Source: a virus. From it: a stretch of 64,000 bases of DNA. The translations under genes and the position numbers were made by a program. Location: IMG/VR virus record IMGVR_UViG_3300008261_000027, positions 54,318 to 118,317 of that record. One strand, given 5' to 3'. Below are positions 4,741 through 52,190 of the stretch, piece after piece. The notes under the pieces are model-generated. The model worked only from the letters and a program-made list of their open reading frames with translations. It was not told the origin of the DNA and searched no databases. How positions within the stretch are numbered: position 1 is the stretch's first letter; every line of letters begins with the position of its first letter.

Positions 4741-4757
4741 TGTTCCACGTGGAAACA
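4741..4757. promoter_or_regulatory. parS-like palindrome
   Basis: TGTTCCACGTGGAAACA versus the bacterial parS variant TGTTCCACGTGGAACA (one extra A; 14/16 ungapped); intergenic. Confidence 0.5.
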
Positions 4758-4842: not shown

Positions 4843-5331
4843 TTAATAAACTTGAATACATCTATCCATTCTTAATGAAGCATCAATTGAAGCTAAAGCA
4901 TCTTCAGAATAGTTCAATTCACCAAAGTTTAAGCTACTTAAGAAACAACCTTCTAAAATCCACTTTTCAACCACAACTCCGGTTGGGTCTAACATTTCAA
5001 GTTCTACGTTTTTCTTATATCCAGCTGCATAACCCATTCTACCTGTTACAGATTCAGCATGTAAACGGAACCATTCCATCAATGCTTGCGAAGCAGATGG
5101 ACCAATTGGGTCTTTAAATGTAACTTTGATCTCTTCCCAAGTAAATCTACCAGCAACATAGGTTGACGTGTTTAAAAACGGAATTTCTGTTGCATTGATT
5201 TTAGCACTTGGTCTAGAGGTAGATGTTACATACCACTCATTGATACCCAAAGAAGACGGGAATCTAAGTATAAATCTATTTTTTCTTTTCGGTTCATATG
5301 GAACCGGCATTTTCATTAGTAAATCTGCCAT
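4843..5331 (-). CDS. gp19: Tail tube protein (T4 gp19-like)
   Basis: YEPKRKNRF, VAGRFTWEEI.VTF.D, WILEGCF; immediately downstream of the sheath. Confidence 0.92.
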   Translation of the reverse strand: MADLLMKMPVPYEPKRKNRFILRFPSSLGINEWYVTSTSRPSAKINATEIPFLNTSTYVAGRFTWEEIKVTFKDPIGPSASQALMEWFRLHAESVTGRMGYAAGYKKNVELEMLDPTGVVVEKWILEGCFLSSLNFGELNYSEDALASIDASLRMDRCIQVY

Positions 5332-5396
5332 TGTATTTGAATTATGTTTTTTCTTTTATTCTCTTTATAAATATTGTCAAATATTTTTTTTAATTA

Positions 5397-5428
5397 TTTG
5401 ACTTTGTCATTTTTTTTCCTTAGCTTTT
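5397..5428 (+). promoter_or_regulatory. Bacteroidota sigma70-type promoter candidate, antisense to the tail operon
   Basis: TTTG (5397-5400), 20-nt spacer, TAGCTTTT (one mismatch to TAnnTTTG). Confidence 0.4.
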
Positions 5429-5440
5429 TGCAAGTAGTAT

Positions 5441-5527
5441 ACTAGTTTACTAAAATACTAAATAACTAATCTACTAAAATACTAAATTTCTAATATACTA
5501 ATTAACTAAGTTCTAATATTCTAATTA
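5441..5527 (+). repeat. Degenerate 8-bp tandem array, 11 units, core WCTAA
   Basis: actagttt|actaaaat|actaaata|actaatct|actaaaat|actaaatt|tctaatat|actaatta|actaagt|tctaatat|tctaatta. Confidence 0.85.
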
Positions 5528-5541
5528 CAAATTTTTATTTT

Positions 5542-5570
5542 GGGTGAGCTGTTTCCAACTCACCCTTTTT
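5542..5570. terminator. Hairpin after the sheath gene; T-tract only on the + strand
   Basis: GGGTGAG...CTCACCC then TTTTT on +; on - it is a 10-bp stem with GAAA tetraloop followed by A's. Confidence 0.65.
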
Positions 5571-5571
5571 A

Positions 5572-8385
5572 TTAAATATTTTCAAAAGAAGCTCCAGTTG
5601 GAGTTATGATAAACTCAACATCAATGAATTCTAATGCTCTTGTTGGTTTAACATAAATCTTACCTCTCAATGTGTTAGCATCGATGTCTTCTGGATCATT
5701 AGATACCGTTACACGGAAATCAAACAAACCTCTTTCTTTCTTTATTGATTCAAGAATTGGATTAACCAATCTTAAGAATTCTTGTCTTACTTGTTCATCG
5801 TTTTGTTCAAACAATAATCTCACAGCAACAGCAGAAATTAACTTTCTTGCTCTCAATAGCAATCTTCTTACGTTGATTCTATCAAGTGCTGATTCTCTAA
5901 CTTGAAGTGTTTTATTACCCCAGATAATTGTACCTGTATCAGAGAATGTTGCAATTGGGTTAATTCTTGCTTTGTAAAGACTATCTCTTTCGTCCAAAGT
6001 AAGTTTCTTTTGTGCTTTGATAGCATTAACTAAACCTCTTGAATAACCTGCTGGAGCGAACCATGGATAAGAAACGTTATCTGTTAATGCGATATTTTTC
6101 AAAACCTCACCTGTTGGTGGTATGAAAAGTTGTGTTGCATTATCAGTATCTCTTACTTGAATCCAAGGCCAGTAAGTTGCTGAGTAGTTAGAATCAAACC
6201 CTAAATCTTCCAAACCTCCGATTGCCTCATCAGCTGTAGTGAAATTAGGAGAGTTGATCACATATAACGAGTCGGCTCTATCATTTTCAATAATATCAAC
6301 TGCTTGTGTTACCAAAGAACTGTTGTTGTACCAATCAATACCTGGTGTTGCAAATAAGTTAATATCAACTGCTTCTGGATTAGCAAATGTTTCAATACCT
6401 GCTAAGTAAGCATAGTAATCTGAATTACCCACCTGTGCATTAAACACACCTGCGTTTACACCGGCAGTGTATGTTGTTTTACCAAAAATATAAGAATCAC
6501 CATATGTTCTTGTATTTCTGTAAATATCCCAACCATCAAATCCGCCAAATACTGGCATTGTAAATTTACGGTTTGCAACTGTGTTCAATTTACCTTTATC
6601 AGTACCTTCTAAATTATATGCTGTTGTTTTATACAAATAGTTACCTGTTGATCCAGTAATTGTTGAAGCATTTGTCGATAAGTGGAATCCAAATGTCGCT
6701 TGTGATGCTCCAGTTCCTTTAAACTTCAACATATCTCTATCATATTCAAAATGATCACTTGTTGAAAAACCTAAAGTTACCTTTCTAACTTTATCACCGT
6801 TTGTTGTTACTGCAGCTCCGCTAGCAGCATAATATAATGTGTCTCCAGCATCATAGTATTTTGTTTTGAAGGTCACACCACCAATATTATTAGTTGTTGT
6901 AAATCCTTTAAAACCAGCAGGAACAGCGTCTGTTGGATGGTCTGAAGCCATAACCAACATAATATGTTTAGATCTTAATTCATATTCTCCATCAGATGTA
7001 CCAACTTTTCTAGCGATATATCCAGGTACATCTGGATTCATTGAACATCTAGTAAATTTCTCTAATACAACTTGATTTTCATCAGTATCATTGAAATCTC
7101 TAACAATAAGATCAAATTCACCAGTTTCCAAATCAATATTTTGAATTGTAACTTTAACATTGAAGTTAGATGCTTCGCCATCTGATATTGTTAAAATATT
7201 AAATAAATCAGAAACAATACCACCTCTAACTTCAGAAACAACTGTTGAAGAAGCCGCAGTATCCCATTGAGTTGTGAAATTATCATCATCGTCAACAACA
7301 ACTTCTGTGGTACTTAAACCTCTAATCAATCCTTGCTCAAATAAGTTTGCAACTAAATTAGGATATGCTTCATGAACATAAACTGGGAAAGCCAATTTAT
7401 CTTTATCAAAAACATCACTACCAATAACTTTTGTTACATATTTTGTTGAGCTTGAATCTAATGAACAATTAAACGTTTTCACATTAGAATCAATATCAGT
7501 TACTGATAATGTAAAATCTGATAGTGGGTTTACATCAATTGATGTACCTGTAATTTGTACAGCTGTACTTCCCGTAACTCTTTGTGTTAAAACCTCAGAA
7601 GCATAAGAGCCTCTTGATCTTAAAGCTAATACAACCTTATCGGCATAATCCTGATTTAAAGATGCACTATATTTGAATCTTGTTACTGTAAATTCTGTAG
7701 TACCGGTTGAATACACAAACAAATATGAGTACACACCATCAATTGTTGAATCAGTTGCGCCTGTTTTTGTAAAATATGTATTGTACCAGTTTTTATTATT
7801 GTTTGATCCGATTGGTGACGAAAGTTGTGTACCCGTTAATGAACTGGTTGAACTGGTTGGAACTTGTCCAATTGTAAACCAGTTATTGTGACTATAGGTT
7901 CTTCCAGATATAAATGATACAACAGAAGTACCTTCTGTAGATGTCTTTCCTGTTAAATCAGAATAGAAATCGCCATTAGCCATATCTGTAGGATCAATTG
8001 TTCCACCTGTTGATGTTGGTGTTGCATTTAAATTTACTGATACCCCACCTAATGTTTTGATTCCATATGTGTTACCGGCCATATAGCCAGTTAAACCAAG
8101 TACTCTTGTTACGAACAATTGATTTGATTCTTGCAAATATGATTTTGCAACATATGGTAATTCATATTTAGGGTTACCAGCACCGTCTTTTGTTGGTGAT
8201 GTACCTCCAAAATATGTTTTAAATTCGTCAAAGTTAGAAATTAGTATAGGTTCAAACGCTGGTCCTTTTAAAGTCTCGCCAACTAAACCAAGTGTCGTAA
8301 CTCCAACACTCTGTGCCACGAATGATAAATCTTTCTCTGATGTATATACACCCGGAGAAACGAAAATTCTGTTTGAATTTGCCAT
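5572..8385 (-). CDS. gp18: Tail sheath protein (T4 gp18-like)
   Basis: N-terminal FVSPGVYTSEKD; C-terminal PWFAPAG..RG, INPI, WGNKTL, RINVRRL, FEQND, KPTRALEFI. Confidence 0.97.
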   Translation of the reverse strand: MANSNRIFVSPGVYTSEKDLSFVAQSVGVTTLGLVGETLKGPAFEPILISNFDEFKTYFGGTSPTKDGAGNPKYELPYVAKSYLQESNQLFVTRVLGLTGYMAGNTYGIKTLGGVSVNLNATPTSTGGTIDPTDMANGDFYSDLTGKTSTEGTSVVSFISGRTYSHNNWFTIGQVPTSSTSSLTGTQLSSPIGSNNNKNWYNTYFTKTGATDSTIDGVYSYLFVYSTGTTEFTVTRFKYSASLNQDYADKVVLALRSRGSYASEVLTQRVTGSTAVQITGTSIDVNPLSDFTLSVTDIDSNVKTFNCSLDSSSTKYVTKVIGSDVFDKDKLAFPVYVHEAYPNLVANLFEQGLIRGLSTTEVVVDDDDNFTTQWDTAASSTVVSEVRGGIVSDLFNILTISDGEASNFNVKVTIQNIDLETGEFDLIVRDFNDTDENQVVLEKFTRCSMNPDVPGYIARKVGTSDGEYELRSKHIMLVMASDHPTDAVPAGFKGFTTTNNIGGVTFKTKYYDAGDTLYYAASGAAVTTNGDKVRKVTLGFSTSDHFEYDRDMLKFKGTGASQATFGFHLSTNASTITGSTGNYLYKTTAYNLEGTDKGKLNTVANRKFTMPVFGGFDGWDIYRNTRTYGDSYIFGKTTYTAGVNAGVFNAQVGNSDYYAYLAGIETFANPEAVDINLFATPGIDWYNNSSLVTQAVDIIENDRADSLYVINSPNFTTADEAIGGLEDLGFDSNYSATYWPWIQVRDTDNATQLFIPPTGEVLKNIALTDNVSYPWFAPAGYSRGLVNAIKAQKKLTLDERDSLYKARINPIATFSDTGTIIWGNKTLQVRESALDRINVRRLLLRARKLISAVAVRLLFEQNDEQVRQEFLRLVNPILESIKKERGLFDFRVTVSNDPEDIDANTLRGKIYVKPTRALEFIDVEFIITPTGASFENI

Positions 8386-8511
8386 TGATAAATGTTTGGT
8401 TAAAAATTTTTATTCTTATCAAATAAATATCTTTGTTTTTAGCAAAGATTTCCTCAATTTTTTGTATTTAGATAGTATTTTATCCTTTTTTATCTTTATT
8501 TATACTTTAGT

Positions 8512-8670
8512 ATGGAAAACAATAACAAAAACATAAAAATCAGTGAAAAACATCATGAAATGTTAAAAAAGCACTGTGAAAAAAACGGATTAAAAATCTA
8601 TAAATTTATTGAGAAGTTGATTGAAGCAAACTGCAAAATCAAAAAAACAGATTTATATGATGAAGATTAA
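8512..8670 (+). CDS. Small ribbon-helix-helix-like DNA-binding protein, 52 aa
   Basis: MENNNKNIKISEKHHEMLKKHCEKNGLKIYKFIEKLIE... shows the RHH beta-alpha-alpha pattern; divergent from the sheath; not in the ORF track. Confidence 0.65.
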   Translation: MENNNKNIKISEKHHEMLKKHCEKNGLKIYKFIEKLIEANCKIKKTDLYDED

Positions 8671-17308: not shown

Positions 17309-17320
17309 ATTTTATAAATA

Positions 17321-18310
17321 TTATGTTAATCTAATCATTACAAAACTACCACTTCTATAAAGACCCTGTAATGGGACACCCGCTGCGGAGGCTTCAATAT
17401 CGTTGTTAAAACTTGACGTCACTTGTGATAATATAGTAAACCCATCTACTTTTAATTCGTCTTGAAGTTTAACACTACCACTAAACTCATATAGATAACC
17501 AGGTGTAACAGAGTTTGTGTTAAAAGAAATTTCACTACCAGTATGAACCGTTATTTGTGGATTCTCCCAACTATTATTTGCAAATAATTTTAATTCAGCT
17601 GGATGAGACGCTCCACCAACAGTTCCAACATATAAATCTTTACCAACATTTAGCAAATACGCATCATTTTCATACCCAACATATCCACCATTGTATGTAC
17701 TTGAGTTAATACCCAGATTAACAAAATGAACAGTTTCATTTCCATTATCGGCTGTAACAACAATGTCACCACTCGCCAAACTACTAGAATTAGTGTTTGT
17801 AATATTAACTTGAGCGTAATATTCGTTATTAGCTTCAAAATGCGCAATATTAAAACTACCTGAATTTTTTACATGTAATTTTGGTGTATTTGGACCATTA
17901 GTTATTACGGGTTCCCCAATAACAACAGATCCAGAAATATACATACCTTCATTATTCCATATTCCATTAGTTATAATACTACCAGATACTCGTAAAGATC
18001 CTGTAAATCCATGGATATCATCTGAACTATTACCAAAATTAGATGAACCACTTATAGTTTCTGTAGTGATATTTGTTATTGATGAACTTAAAATATATTG
18101 TTGTGCCGTAATTGACCCACTAATTGTTAAGTTACCATTTATAACTTGACTTCCTGTGAATACATGTGACCCACTATCAACAAGCTTCTGTCTTAAATTT
18201 GACAAACTATGTTGGTACGTTATTCCTGAATAAACAACGGCTGTTAATCCACTTAAAGGTAAGTTTGATAAGGAACCGCTTGATAATTGTGATATTTTTT
18301 TTCCTGCCAT
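17321..18310 (-). CDS. Tail fibre-like protein
   Basis: N-terminal KKISQL; repeated FTGS..ISGS beta motifs; C-terminal GLYRSG. Confidence 0.6.
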   Translation of the reverse strand: MAGKKISQLSSGSLSNLPLSGLTAVVYSGITYQHSLSNLRQKLVDSGSHVFTGSQVINGNLTISGSITAQQYILSSSITNITTETISGSSNFGNSSDDIHGFTGSLRVSGSIITNGIWNNEGMYISGSVVIGEPVITNGPNTPKLHVKNSGSFNIAHFEANNEYYAQVNITNTNSSSLASGDIVVTADNGNETVHFVNLGINSSTYNGGYVGYENDAYLLNVGKDLYVGTVGGASHPAELKLFANNSWENPQITVHTGSEISFNTNSVTPGYLYEFSGSVKLQDELKVDGFTILSQVTSSFNNDIEASAAGVPLQGLYRSGSFVMIRLT

Positions 18311-19770: not shown

Positions 19771-19776
19771 ATTTCT

Positions 19777-19807
19777 ATAAATATCTTTCCCTCTGTTTGA
19801 TATTTAT
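19777..19807. promoter_or_regulatory. Back-to-back late promoter motifs (TATTTAT on each sense strand)
   Basis: ATAAATA at 19777-83 upstream of 19770(-), and TATTTAT at 19801-07 upstream of 19824(+). Confidence 0.65.
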
Positions 19808-21058: not shown

Positions 21059-21727
21059 ATGGCAACACAATTAGAATTAATCGCCGAGAAAGAAAGACAA
21101 ATGCATTTAGCTAGAAACTCATATGCATCTGATTCTAGTTACGCAACAACACACCCTAACGCATTATCAGATGGTGATGAAAAGGGTAAGGGTGAAAACG
21201 ATGGAAAGATCGGTTCTTCTGAAGATATACAAGCAAGACTTAATAATCTTGTTAAAAACTCATATTCAACAAAAAATGAATATGGTAACACAAATATTAA
21301 TGCGTTATCAGATGGTGATGAAAAAGGAAAGGGCGAATTAAATAACTCTATTGGGTCAAAAACAGACATTAATACTAGACAAGAATTACTTTCTAAAAAT
21401 TTATATAATAGTAGAAAGGGTTATTCAAGCATTCATCAAAATGCGTTATCAGATGGCGATGAAAGAGGTAAGGGTGAAAACAATAATAAAATTGGATCAG
21501 CCACGGATATTAATATGAGAACAGAACTACTTGCTAAAAACGCATATAGCAATGGTAAAGGATATTCTAGTGGACATCCTAATGCATTATCAGATGGTGA
21601 TGAAAAGGGTAAAGGGGAAAATGATAAAAAAATAGGTTCTTTAACCGACATCAACACAAGAACAGAATCTGTTTCAAGAAATTATTATGGAGAAAATAGA
21701 AGATACCCAGATATAACACAAATATGA
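21059..21727 (+). CDS. Repeat protein, 4 x 47 aa
   Basis: NALSDGDE(K/R)GKGE begins at 21158, 21299, 21440 and 21581 (exact 141-nt period). Confidence 0.8.
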   Translation: MATQLELIAEKERQMHLARNSYASDSSYATTHPNALSDGDEKGKGENDGKIGSSEDIQARLNNLVKNSYSTKNEYGNTNINALSDGDEKGKGELNNSIGSKTDINTRQELLSKNLYNSRKGYSSIHQNALSDGDERGKGENNNKIGSATDINMRTELLAKNAYSNGKGYSSGHPNALSDGDEKGKGENDKKIGSLTDINTRTESVSRNYYGENRRYPDITQI

Positions 21728-38234: not shown

Positions 38235-39968
38235 TTATCTTAAAGTGTTAAGATCGAAAGTTTGTAAACCACTTACGTTGATGATACCGAAGTAACGGTT
38301 GTTAACCATTTTCTTTGCATATCTTGTCATGATACCTTTGATTGGTGTCATGTTAAATGGATTGTACATTGTTGGAGTTAATTGTAAAGGTACATATGGT
38401 GCGTAGATGTAACCAGCATCCAATAATGATTTACCTTTGTGACCCACAAGGATCTTACCAGCTGGTAAGTATGGATCACGATATACTTGATAACGTCCAG
38501 CCAAAGTACCGATCTTTTCGATACCCATGTTGTACTGATCTTGCTCTGGGCTAGCATTTGATACGTGGAAATACTCTAAATCATCGAATACTGCAGAAAC
38601 TTCTGAAGATACAACGATCCAGTTAGCACCACCTCTCAAAGTTGACTTATGGATTTGAGCAGAAACCTGATTGATCTTAGTGATCAATGTTTGGTTCCAG
38701 TCTTTTTGAGTGTAACCTACAAATGGAGTGTTTCCAGTTGCACCGTATTTCCACTCATTGTAATCCCACTTAGCTGACCAAGCAGCACCTTTTCTAAGGT
38801 CACGTAAAATTTCACGGTCAACCTCAGCAGCAATTTGCTCAGATAATAAAGCTGTTAATTCAGCTTCAGCATCGATGTTATGGAACGCAGATACGTCCTG
38901 AGCAAGTTCTGGAGACCAGCTAGCTCTTAATTTTCTTTCAGTAACAGATACTGTAACTGAAGCAAGATCAAATGATACTTCACCGATATTGTCTTCAAAT
39001 TCCAAAGTCTCATATGTTCTGTAAGTTACTTTGAAGTTAGCCAAAGCTAAATCGTTAGAGCTGAAATCAGCTGCAGCGAAACCAGTAGTGCTGCTATAGC
39101 TTTCCAAATCTACATTCAAATAGATCTTACCTTCTTCGTCGCAGATGTCGTGGAATCTAGAAAGACCAGAACCACCTTTCACACCATACTCAACGATACC
39201 TTTACCATATTTTTGAGTTACAACGTTGAAGTTTTTAACACCATTGTTTGCAGTTGTGTTACCAGTAACTTCAACTTGAAGAGATGCTAAAAATTCTTCA
39301 GTATCCATAAGGTTACCATTAGCACCAACCATTTTACCTTGACCGTCTTTTGTGAAACCAGAAAGAACAATAATCAAGTTAGATACACTAGATCCACTTT
39401 CATTAGCAGTAGTTGTGCTAGCAGTACCGTTTGAGAATGTTACGAAAGCGTGAGGATTGGCTTCAACTGTTGTGAAAGCACCCTTTGAATAATCGAACAA
39501 ACCTTGATCGTTTGCGTCTGAAGACTCATAAAAACGATCGTAAAGGCTCTTCGCGTTGTCACCATAACCAGCAGTAGCTGCGTCAGAGTTACCTGGCATA
39601 CCGAATGGCTGATAGTGTGCACCACTGTTTCTATCTTGAATTTTAGGTACGAAGTAGAACAATTTACCAATTGGTAAGTTCATTGCTTGTACTGATACGA
39701 TGTCGTTTGCTAACAACTTAGAGAAAACACGACGGATAATTGGGAATACCACTGTCTCGAAAGAACCAGAAGCATCAGAAACTGCTGCTTCGTTGATTAA
39801 ATAAGACGCTTGGTTTTCATACAATTGCGCGATGTTATCTTTTTGGTGACCGTCTAATCCGTCAAGGAATCCTAGGTCATCCCATTTTTTGATGGTATCT
39901 TCTTTGATAACACGAAGGTGCTTAAGACCGATGTTACCAACCATACCTGATTCTAATAATGCTCCCAT
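38235..39968 (-). CDS. gp23: Major capsid protein (T4 gp23-like)
   Basis: VSVQAM..P.G, RKLRA.WS.E.AQD...H.IDAEAEL, YAPYVPL, P.KG.MTRY. Confidence 0.97.
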   Translation of the reverse strand: MGALLESGMVGNIGLKHLRVIKEDTIKKWDDLGFLDGLDGHQKDNIAQLYENQASYLINEAAVSDASGSFETVVFPIIRRVFSKLLANDIVSVQAMNLPIGKLFYFVPKIQDRNSGAHYQPFGMPGNSDAATAGYGDNAKSLYDRFYESSDANDQGLFDYSKGAFTTVEANPHAFVTFSNGTASTTTANESGSSVSNLIIVLSGFTKDGQGKMVGANGNLMDTEEFLASLQVEVTGNTTANNGVKNFNVVTQKYGKGIVEYGVKGGSGLSRFHDICDEEGKIYLNVDLESYSSTTGFAAADFSSNDLALANFKVTYRTYETLEFEDNIGEVSFDLASVTVSVTERKLRASWSPELAQDVSAFHNIDAEAELTALLSEQIAAEVDREILRDLRKGAAWSAKWDYNEWKYGATGNTPFVGYTQKDWNQTLITKINQVSAQIHKSTLRGGANWIVVSSEVSAVFDDLEYFHVSNASPEQDQYNMGIEKIGTLAGRYQVYRDPYLPAGKILVGHKGKSLLDAGYIYAPYVPLQLTPTMYNPFNMTPIKGIMTRYAKKMVNNRYFGIINVSGLQTFDLNTLR

Positions 39969-52146: not shown

Positions 52147-52190
52147 TGACATTTAGACATTAGTTAGACATTTTTTTAGACATTTTGTCA
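52147..52190. promoter_or_regulatory. Repeated GACATT operator-like boxes between hsp20 and clpC
   Basis: TGACATT, three TTAGACATT copies, then inverted TGTCA. Confidence 0.55.

What the first reader, a model, noticed from the sequence alone, without database searches (positions are those of the whole stretch)
5397..5570. Promoter, 11 x 8-bp array and terminator: a tiny antisense unit between sheath and tube genes (origin or decoy RNA?)
Seen: a host-type promoter candidate on + (TTTG-N20-TAGCTTTT), then 11 WCTAA-core octamers with only two G on the + strand, then a hairpin whose T-tract exists only on +. This predicts a ~130-nt non-coding transcript made mostly of ACUAA repeats, antisense to the tail operon. 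Known: T4 origins are a promoter plus an AT-rich unwinding element that forms an R-loop, and iteron arrays mark origins. Inference: replication origin/primer RNA, or a repeat RNA that sponges a protein.
Basis: partly seen in the sequence, partly recalled or inferred. Interest (0 to 1): 0.78.

Follow-up and report, generated by a model that had tools for sequence, protein, structure and literature searches.

The report
Promoter-driven repeat array between phage tail genes
Between the tail-sheath and tail-tube genes of an uncultured freshwater giant phage lies a conserved, gene-less unit (bacterial-type promoter, a row of eleven 8-base boxes, terminator hairpin) that may start replication or gather proteins on the DNA, but its role is unproven.

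Summary
There are eleven boxes (10 CTAA, 1 CTAG) spaced 8,8,8,8,8,8,8,8,7,8 nt at 5440-5526, with only 2 G on the + strand. No other such array exists in the 118-kb record.

The promoter pattern alone occurs at chance frequency in the window. However, TTG-N20-TAnnTTT is invariant in 56 of 57 distinct relatives' sheath-tube spacers and scores at least 20 bits in 39 of 42 in a second sample. It matches the Bacteroidota sigma-A pattern and points away from the tube gene. The hairpin is two-way in relatives.

So a conserved, single-copy antisense non-coding unit is well supported by comparison, though no strand-specific RNA data exist. The regular array is confined to the closest subclade; one relative has period 7. 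Farther relatives carry CTAG/CCAG boxes in both orientations, often with a parS-like site, and 7 of 54 have almost no boxes.

Function is open. I favour an origin-like or DNA-organising site (promoter plus AT-rich boxed tract, as in T4 oriE/oriF). Skew gives no support. A syntenic RHH-like protein is only a weak candidate binder. This scan has noted the same module before in other genomes.

The parts
4742..4756 (.). parS-like palindrome GTTCCACGTGGAAAC in the next spacer (tube to hub gene). In many farther relatives the equivalent site lies inside the sheath-tube module.
   Evidence: 1 match, 0.04 expected; parS-like site inside the module in 20 of 42 sequences of the second sample; same relocation in G001
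4843..5331 (-). tail tube gene, 162 aa
   Evidence: (phrog_4542, E 1.2e-26)
5366..5374 (-). phage late-promoter-like motif ATATTTATA ahead of the tube gene, back to back with the host-type promoter
   Evidence: 16 copies in the record, most 5-40 nt before an ATG on the same strand; conserved in relatives' spacers
5398..5428 (+). host-type (Bacteroidota sigma-A-like) promoter: -33 TTG at 5398-5400 and -7 box TAGCTTTT at 5421-5428. A palindrome TGAC-TTT-GTCA (5399-5409) overlaps the -33 element.
   Evidence: consensus and box position -12 to -5 from passages of PMC9723704
5433..5571 (+). predicted non-coding transcript of about 140 nt. The start is inferred from the -7 box position and the end from the hairpin plus T-tract. 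It has not been observed.
   Evidence: inference; one search shows only that an RNA-library contig covers 5427-5577, with no strand
5440..5526 (+). array of 11 boxes, W-W-CTA-A/G plus an AT-rich spacer, period 8 (one unit of 7), all in one orientation
5542..5570 (.). GC-rich hairpin (5542-5565) with TTTTT on + (5566-5570), abutting the sheath stop codon. It is the 3' hairpin of the sheath mRNA and the likely terminator of the antisense unit.
5572..8385 (-). tail sheath gene, 937 aa
   Evidence: (phrog_23, E 1.8e-63)
8512..8670 (+). 52-aa ribbon-helix-helix-like ORF, divergent from the sheath gene. It is a candidate, weakly supported, binder of the boxes.

Best explanation
The array is the local form of a clade-wide, one-per-genome, non-coding module. 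A promoter read by the host's own RNA polymerase (Bacteroidota sigma-A type) fires early, away from the tube gene. It transcribes 90-230 nt of very AT-rich DNA studded with short boxes and stops at the two-way hairpin behind the sheath gene. In this phage's lineage the boxes were amplified by unit duplication into a regular, one-orientation 8-bp array.

I think the module most likely acts on the DNA rather than through its RNA. I read it as an origin-like or genome-organising site built like phage T4 origins. T4 oriE has an early promoter plus evenly spaced direct repeats. T4 oriF and oriG have a promoter plus an AT-rich unwinding element in which the transcript forms an R-loop that primes DNA synthesis. 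On this reading the boxes serve as landing sites for a protein that gates or assembles on the site.

Shown: the anatomy, its conservation, its single copy, and its AT-richness. Inferred: that the promoter fires, that it fires early, that the RNA or R-loop primes replication, and that any protein binds the boxes.
For: The promoter is the best-kept part. TTG and TA..TTT are invariant (100% columns) in the best sites of 57 distinct spacers, and 56 of 57 score above 15 bits. Spacing is always 17 in the 39 of 57 that match the strict regex. In a second sample, 39 of 42 new distinct spacers score at least 20 bits. The site is single-copy in this record, with no other site above 14 bits. In a 251-kb relative it scores 38.3 bits against a next best of 21.1.

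The transcribed tract is not conserved in sequence but stays AT-rich. In the window it is 17% GC, within the lowest 0.6% of 100-nt windows. Seven of 54 relatives keep the promoter and hairpin with almost no boxes. This is what a sequence-independent unwinding element predicts. [quoted passage not shown]

Boxes occur in both orientations in farther relatives (188 forward, 184 reverse). That fits DNA recognition better than a single-stranded RNA motif. A bacterial-centromere-like parS site sits in or beside the module. The unit ends at a hairpin with an antisense T-rich tail in 67 of 82 relatives. The module lies about 5 kb inside the start of a very long one-direction late-gene block. The phage is a distant T4 relative with T4-type replication genes: helicase phrog_62 and gp32 in the relative G001.
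Against: There is no direct evidence of replication initiation. Cumulative GC and AT skew show no turning point at the array in this record. In the 251-kb relative the local minima lie at 99.5 and 98.9 kb, which is the gene-strand switch, 12-13 kb from the module. The tract is AT-poor in stability but not unique, since about ten other places have equal or lower GC. The predicted RNA is almost G-free, which does not favour stable R-loops (established knowledge, not tested here). Transcription from the promoter was not shown. The one RNA-library contig over the array starts at 5427, upstream of the predicted start at 5433, and carries no strand. No initiator protein was identified. Position-specific conservation of the box core shows selection on the boxes themselves, which a plain unwinding element does not explain. 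The record is only 38% complete by CheckV's estimate and the relative 75%.
Confidence: 0.33

Rival explanations
1. Operator or centromere-like array only. The boxes are coated by a small dimeric DNA-binding protein, which could be the syntenic 52-aa RHH-like protein or a host factor. This would resemble ParG on the parH/OF tetramer-box arrays of plasmid TP228. The coat blocks or tunes the antisense promoter, or builds a nucleoprotein complex, with no role in replication.
For: The anatomy matches closely. [quoted passage not shown] The window has 11 direct boxes with a 3-4 bp invariant core and AT spacers over 87 bp, starting about 7 nt after the predicted start site.

An RHH-like ORF sits 3 kb away on the same strand in 47 of 47 loci with enough flank. 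Its best Pfam hits are two RHH families, both under their cut-offs: RepB-RCR_reg at E 0.0011 (19.3 bits, cut-off 21) and ParG at E 0.057. Thirteen of the 120 listed family members carry a precomputed PF10723 hit. Weak profile hits to solved RHH proteins are SvtR at 0.11, ParG at 0.27 and Reg576 at 0.59. The only two Foldseek rows are Arc and omega repressors, at E 7.6 and 8.6. The AF2 monomer shows an extended N-terminus plus two helices, pLDDT 70.
Against: The RHH-like gene is also present in 5 of the 7 box-poor relatives; the other two loci do not reach that far. Its ribbon residues (K-N-V/I-K-I-S) are the same whatever the box type. Its own upstream region carries a different repeat, AGATA/TATCT boxes and an ATCTTTG palindrome, which is the more usual target of such a repressor. 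Period 8 changes to 7 in a close relative, which is awkward for a phased protein coat. No ParA-type ATPase (PF13614, PF01656), ParB_N or TrpR was found in this record or the 75%-complete relative. All RHH assignments are below significance thresholds.
Confidence: 0.25
2. Small non-coding RNA. The roughly 140-nt + strand transcript made of UACUAA-type repeats is the active product. It would be a decoy or sponge for a single-strand RNA-binding protein, or a regulator.
For: There is a conserved promoter and a conserved terminator on the same strand. In the closest subclade the boxes have one orientation (113 forward, 6 reverse). Unit length is flexible, with period 8 and once 7, as tolerated by proteins that read motifs on a flexible strand. 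An RNA-library contig covers 5427-5577 without mismatch. In relative L061 a gene with no promoter of its own in view is inserted downstream of the same promoter.
Against: The transcript sequence is not conserved across the clade. Farther relatives have boxes in both orientations, and 7 of 54 have almost none. There is no Rfam family at gathering scores in the window, and only chance-level rows at permissive thresholds. The + strand RNA folds no better than shuffles (z -1.5). The consensus folds of relatives show only invariant or local stems, with covariation limited to the terminator. No partner protein is known. The contig begins upstream of the predicted start and has no strand.
Confidence: 0.15
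3. Local transcription control. The divergent host-type promoter exists to act on its neighbour, the tube late promoter 25-40 bp away. It could do this by promoter competition early or by transcription-driven supercoiling later. The repeat tract would be a tolerated, slippage-prone spacer before the terminator.
For: The host-type promoter and the late motif lie back to back in all relatives. A second such pair sits at the sheath/RHH-like gene spacer. The transcribed sequence is free to vary. The array changes by unit gains and losses between close relatives.
Against: Spacing between the promoter box and the late motif varies from about 23 to more than 40 nt. The box cores are under position-specific conservation, and box motifs recur across lineages at several times the shuffle expectation. 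Neither is expected for a neutral spacer.
Confidence: 0.15

Closest known systems
Phage T4 replication origins oriE, and oriF/oriG (review PMC3016281; passages read)
   Same: [quoted passage not shown] In oriF/oriG the tract's sequence is not important. The phage here is a distant T4 relative.
   Different: The repeats are 8 nt here, not 12. The site lies between late tail genes, not at the T4 positions, and is single-copy rather than one of five or more. No replication data exist, and there is no skew turning point at the site. The promoter is of Bacteroidota sigma-A type, not MotA-dependent.
parH centromere and OF operator of plasmid TP228 with the RHH protein ParG (PMC3130281; passages read)
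   Same: Both are about 90-100 bp arrays of 4-bp boxes with 4-bp AT-rich spacers, with eleven direct boxes next to a promoter. A small RHH-like protein is encoded nearby, and box orientation is free across the family.
   Different: No ParA-type partner was found. The RHH-like gene lies 3 kb away and has other repeats at its own promoter. The array lies downstream of the promoter, not over it. Binding is untested.
Bacteroidota sigma-A promoters, -33 TTG / -7 TAnnTTTG (PMC9723704; passages read)
   Same: TTG-N20-TAnnTTT is invariant across relatives. The host type also fits the near absence of Shine-Dalgarno motifs, with SD-like 4-mers before only 4 of 108 genes.
   Different: The last base of the -7 box is T, not G, in the window. 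The -33 region carries an extra conserved palindrome (TTGAY-N3-RTCAA) and a T-rich spacer, which hints at an added regulator site.
Tandem 8-bp operator repeats of MetJ (metboxes) and TrpR (CTAG-centred half-sites), and heptad arrays of omega repressor. These are recalled, not checked in any call.
   Same: Short boxes are repeated head to tail at 7-8 bp and read by small dimeric repressors. TrpR sites are centred on CTAG, like the boxes of the farther relatives.
   Different: No TrpR family match was found in this record or the relative. These are resemblances from memory only.

Membership tests
T4-type transcription-primed origin (oriF/oriG, oriE) | Promoter active before the late phase, directed into the element | tested here: met
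   A host-type promoter pattern is conserved in 56 of 57 and 39 of 42 distinct spacers. Its activity and timing are inferred, not measured.
T4-type transcription-primed origin (oriF/oriG, oriE) | A+T-rich unwinding tract just downstream (oriF/G) or evenly spaced direct repeats (oriE) | tested here: met
   The tract is 17% GC, within the lowest 0.6% of 100-nt windows, and holds 11 boxes at 8-nt spacing. The regular array occurs only in the closest subclade.
T4-type transcription-primed origin (oriF/oriG, oriE) | R-loop formation and start of DNA synthesis at the site; autonomous replication of a plasmid in infected cells | not testable with these tools
   This needs infected cells. The only proxy available, cumulative skew, shows no turning point at the site.
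RHH-coated tetramer-box array (TP228 parH/OF with ParG) | Array of about 4-bp boxes separated by AT-rich spacers of about 4 bp | tested here: met
   compared with passages of PMC3130281
RHH-coated tetramer-box array (TP228 parH/OF with ParG) | A ribbon-helix-helix protein encoded with the array | tested here: inconclusive
   A 52-aa ORF is syntenic in 47 of 47 loci. Its Pfam RHH hits are under the cut-offs, its PDB and Foldseek hits are all RHH but not significant, and the AF2 model has pLDDT 70.
RHH-coated tetramer-box array (TP228 parH/OF with ParG) | Same boxes at the protein's own promoter (operator) as in the array | tested here: not met
   The upstream region of the RHH-like gene carries TATCT/AGATA boxes, not the array's boxes.
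RHH-coated tetramer-box array (TP228 parH/OF with ParG) | ParA-type ATPase partner | tested here: not met
   There is no PF13614 or PF01656 match in G000 (38% complete) or G001 (75% complete). The incomplete records leave room for a missed gene.
Known RNA families (Rfam 15) | Match at the family's gathering score | tested here: not met
   There are 0 matches in the 64-kb window. Permissive searches of the locus and of 7 relatives' loci gave only sub-threshold rows.
Intrinsic (hairpin plus T-tract) terminator on the + strand | GC-rich stem-loop followed by a T run | tested here: met
   The hairpin at 5542-5565 is followed by TTTTT. The antisense tail is T-rich in 67 of 82 relatives' hairpins and the sense tail in 48 of 82. 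The consensus scan tool did not list it, which calls for at least 5 T within 8 nt starting 0-2 nt after the stem; why it was missed was not examined.

The most novel reading that the evidence does not exclude
The module is the replication start and genome-organising centre of a large, uncultured clade of freshwater giant phages of Bacteroidota. A host-polymerase promoter opens an AT-rich boxed tract to prime DNA synthesis. A phage or host protein counts or gates firing through the box array. A copied host centromere site (parS) beside it recruits the host's chromosome-handling machinery to the phage genome.
Probability: 0.2. Interest if true: 0.75.

Novelty: new variant of a known kind. Interest (0 to 1): 0.5.

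Why it matters
Origins and genome-organising sites of giant phages outside the T4 and phiKZ models are essentially unmapped. A one-per-genome non-coding module with a host-type promoter is a concrete place to look for the start of replication. It is equally a place to look for a phage-borne protein-DNA switch. The 8-bp array in this lineage offers a clean substrate for binding and replication assays. If it proves to be only a promoter with a slippage-prone leader, it is still a useful marker of how these phages use the host polymerase inside their late region.

Tried and rejected
RNA reads. X2 has a read-length contig over 5427-5577 (depth 2, no mismatch). X1, X3 and X4 have none over the array apart from a 35-nt piece with 4 mismatches. 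This gives no strand, no ends and no exclusion of DNA carry-over, so it is not used as evidence of a + strand RNA.

Homodimer test of the 52-aa protein. The outcome was no verdict, with a score of 0.39 against a mark of 0.42. It is not used either way.

gp32 idea. I asked whether a 7-8-nt lattice could serve the phage single-strand binding protein, as in the T4 gene 32 leader. No gp32 gene lies in this record. The gp32 gene of relative G001 has no such repeats in its leader. Dropped.

Base-pairing idea. The array unit is complementary to the start region of the RHH-like gene, but only in the window and in L050 among the 28 sequences shown (27 loci plus the window). I treat this as chance.

Covariation between RHH ribbon residues and box type: none was seen.

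Long-range RNA stem. In one subgroup a 9-bp stem (ACCCAGUA...UACUGGGU) is predicted but invariant, so it is uninformative. In the larger subgroup no long-range stem is predicted.

Second copy of the -33 palindrome in G001, at 39,140. It lies between two ordinary genes and offered no clue.

Cultured relatives. The best tube matches are Microcystis phage Mel-JY01 (39%) and Flavobacterium immuto phages (34%). Their sheath-tube gaps are 94 and 45 nt with no module. The RHH-like protein has no tblastn match at E up to 1 in 50,697 phage records.

CTAG avoidance. It does not apply in this record (ratio 1.17). Across the first 78 loci, CTAG is 6.19 per kb in the module against 1.35 outside.

Two first attempts to score T-tails were confounded because A and T tracts were folded into the stem. 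One search replaces them. This also corrects my notebook line that the T-tract is on the sense strand in most relatives; it is on both.

Literature. A full-text search for phage + tail sheath + tail tube + intergenic + direct repeats + antisense (at least 5 of 6 terms) listed 7 papers. None is about such a module by title or abstract. I saw no paper describing it, and supplements are closed.

Full report
WHAT IS THERE. The window is the right-hand 64 kb of a 118,317-base virus record (31.7% GC, one contig, 38% complete by CheckV's estimate). All genes around the finding lie on the - strand. The tail sheath gene is at 5572-8385 (937 aa; phrog_23, E 1.8e-63). The tail tube gene is at 4843-5331 (162 aa; phrog_4542, E 1.2e-26). 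The 240-nt spacer between them (5332-5571) is one of the longest gaps in a record that is 96% coding by a crude ORF call.

The spacer, read on the + strand, contains in order:
- the reverse complement of a late-promoter-like motif for the tube gene (ATATTTATA on -, 5366-5374);
- TTG (5398-5400), 20 nt, then TAGCTTTT (5421-5428);
- eleven boxes at 5440-5526;
- a GC-rich hairpin at 5542-5565;
- TTTTT at 5566-5570;
- the sheath stop codon.

IS IT MORE THAN CHANCE. The array is. TRF reports period 8, 11.1 copies. Box cores lie at spacings 8,8,8,8,8,8,8,8,7,8, and the + strand holds 2 G in 88 nt. The CTA core is invariant in 10 of 10 eight-base units, while flanking positions vary. None of 100,000 composition-preserving shuffles reached the observed 10 CTAA. 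Nothing comparable exists elsewhere in the record. The position-specific conservation argues for selection on the core rather than a fresh duplication. A 24-nt higher-order period shows growth by multi-unit duplication. The promoter pattern alone is not significant, with 9 matches in the window against 8.6 expected.

HOST TYPE AND PHAGE TYPE. SD-like 4-mers precede only 4 of 108 genes. The motif ATATTTATA occurs 16 times, mostly 5-40 nt before start codons. The nearest cultured tube proteins are 34-39% identical: Microcystis phage Mel-JY01, Flavobacterium immuto phages and Rhodothermus RM378. This is an uncultured distant T4 relative, probably of a Bacteroidota host. The cultured relatives have sheath-tube gaps of 94 and 45 nt and no module.

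RELATIVES. A scan of viral contigs with the tube protein found 597 relatives, of which 80 were kept. Of these, 78 hold both genes. Their spacers are 254-479 nt in 76, with 941 and 1,922 nt in two that carry inserted ORFs. Together with the window this gives 57 distinct spacers.

A weight matrix built from the strict matches finds the box in 56 of 57. TTG and TA..TTT are invariant, and the two are always 20 nt apart. The one outlier has the same elements by eye with a 21-nt gap. This invariance pattern (T, A, n, n, T, T, T) is that of the flavobacterial sigma-A -7 box TAnnTTTG at -12 to -5 (passages of PMC9723704). That places the start near 5433.

A second scan seeded from a divergent tube protein gave 68 loci with both genes and 42 new distinct spacers. 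Of these, 39 of 42 score at least 20 bits. The box is single-copy in this record and in a 251-kb, 75%-complete relative, G001. The promoter always points away from the tube gene, toward the boxes and the hairpin.

THE ARRAY IS A LINEAGE-SPECIFIC FORM. Period-8 self-similarity (z 3.2-8.0) is seen only in the window and its closest relatives (L001-L017). L007, whose promoter and hairpin are nearly identical to the window's, has period 7 (z 5.9). Farther relatives have no period. They carry CTAGTA, CCAGTA, TACTGG and CTAGAA boxes at several times the shuffle expectation. Many also hold an inverted pair ACCCAGTA...TACTGGGT and a parS-like palindrome GTTCCACGTGGAAC inside the module. The parS-like site occurs in 20 of 42 spacers of the second sample.

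In the window and in G001 the parS-like site sits instead in the next spacer, after the tube gene. Box orientation is one-way in the near group (113 forward, 6 reverse in 12 distinct spacers) and balanced in the far group (188 against 184 in 42). Seven of the 54 have two boxes or fewer.

THE HAIRPIN. In the window it is stronger on the - strand, with ten pairs and a GAAA loop, but only the + strand has a T-tract. Among 95 distinct spacers of at most 600 nt, 82 have a GC-core hairpin by my criteria. The tail is T-rich (at least 6 of 10) on the antisense side in 67, on the sense side in 48, on both in 37 and on neither in 4. It is therefore a two-way terminator shared by the sheath gene and the antisense unit.

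Two relatives carry a gene inserted in the antisense direction between the parS-like site and the hairpin. L061 holds a 217-aa GDS(L)-motif hydrolase-like ORF with no promoter of its own in view. L148 holds a 234-aa ORF with an L,D-transpeptidase-like motif, preceded by its own late motif. The names for both motifs are from recall. A third relative, L067, has a 509-aa ORF in the sense direction. The slot thus behaves as a transcription unit in that direction.

RNA DATA. Sixteen metatranscriptome runs hold parts of the 5-kb stretch. Laying the four best gave only assembled contigs. One run has a 151-nt contig over 5427-5577 without mismatch at depth 2, and the other three do not cover the array. 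This shows presence in an RNA library only.

ORIGIN TESTS. Skew follows gene direction. There is no turning point at the array in this record. In G001 the local minima lie at the strand switch near 99 kb, 12-13 kb from the module. The tract is in the lowest 0.6% of windows for GC, but about ten places match it. [quoted passage not shown]

PROTEIN-BINDING TESTS. It is present in 47 of 47 loci with enough flank. Its residues K6, N7, K9 and I10 and the two helices are conserved. Its family resemblances are all to RHH proteins, but none is significant. Thirteen of the 120 listed homologues carry a precomputed PF10723 hit.

The array's anatomy matches the ParG-coated parH/OF arrays (passages of PMC3130281). 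Several points weigh against the link:
- the gene persists in box-poor relatives;
- its ribbon does not vary with box type;
- its own upstream region has other repeats;
- no ParA, ParB_N or TrpR family member was found in G000 or G001.

RNA-LEVEL TESTS. There is no Rfam family. The + strand RNA folds no better than shuffles (z -1.5). The - strand's z of -5.75 owes much to the terminator. There is no covariation outside the terminator and the parS-like palindrome.

SYNTHESIS. Three features are universal across 99 distinct spacers: the promoter, an AT-rich tract free to change, and the two-way hairpin. Boxes are usual but not universal, and their orientation is free. This pattern fits a function of the DNA, or of the act of transcription, better than a sequence-specific RNA.

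I rank the readings as follows:
- origin-like or organising site: 0.33
- protein-coated operator only: 0.25
- repeat RNA: 0.15
- local promoter control with a tolerated repeat spacer: 0.15
- the remainder for something not considered

The first two are not exclusive.

NOVELTY. The parts are of known kinds: host-type promoter, iteron-like boxes and terminator. Their conserved combination between sheath and tube genes is not described in any paper that my one search for the module itself listed. Earlier notes of this scan describe the same module on other genomes of the clade. The window adds the regular one-orientation 8-bp form with the parS-like site moved to the next spacer.

Noticed in passing
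window 4742-4756: A parS-like palindrome GTTCCACGTGGAAAC sits in the tube-to-hub spacer. In many farther relatives the equivalent site (GTTCCACGTGGAAC; one relative has TGTTTCTCGTGAAACA) lies inside the sheath-tube module. No ParB_N gene was found in this record or in G001, so a host ParB would have to read it.
   Followed up: partly
window 8386-8511: The divergent spacer between the sheath gene and the 52-aa RHH-like gene is almost invariant across relatives. It holds a perfect -7 box TATCTTTG, an ATCTTTG...CAAAGAT palindrome, and three to four TATCT boxes plus one inverted AGATA. It is probably the small protein's own operator.
   Followed up: partly
window 52152-52186: Three to four TTAGACAT-type direct repeats, followed by a -7-like TATCTTTTG, lie in the 175-nt divergent spacer between an Hsp20-like gene and an ATP-dependent-protease-like gene (phrog_432, phrog_4871).
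   Followed up: no
whole record (G000), e.g. window 5366-5374, 17313-17321, 19776-19784: ATATTTATA occurs 16 times, mostly 5-40 nt before start codons on the same strand. It is a likely late-promoter motif of this clade. It reads as the reverse complement of T4's late motif TATAAATA plus one base (T4 motif recalled, not checked in any call).
   Followed up: partly
L061:1532-2185 (-), L148 spacer, L067:903-2432 (+): Three relatives carry cargo ORFs inside the sheath-tube spacer. They are a GDS(L)-motif hydrolase-like ORF (217 aa), an ORF with an L,D-transpeptidase-like motif (234 aa, with its own late motif), and a 509-aa cysteine-rich ORF. Motif names are recalled and were not scanned.
   Followed up: partly
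whole record (G000): SD-like 4-mers lie before only 4 of 108 crude gene calls, and GATC is under-represented (ratio 0.76 to a Markov expectation).
   Followed up: no
window 21299-21633: There is a 141-nt tandem repeat, 2.4 copies at 74% match, inside a coding region (TRF). Another note of this scan already flags it.
   Followed up: no
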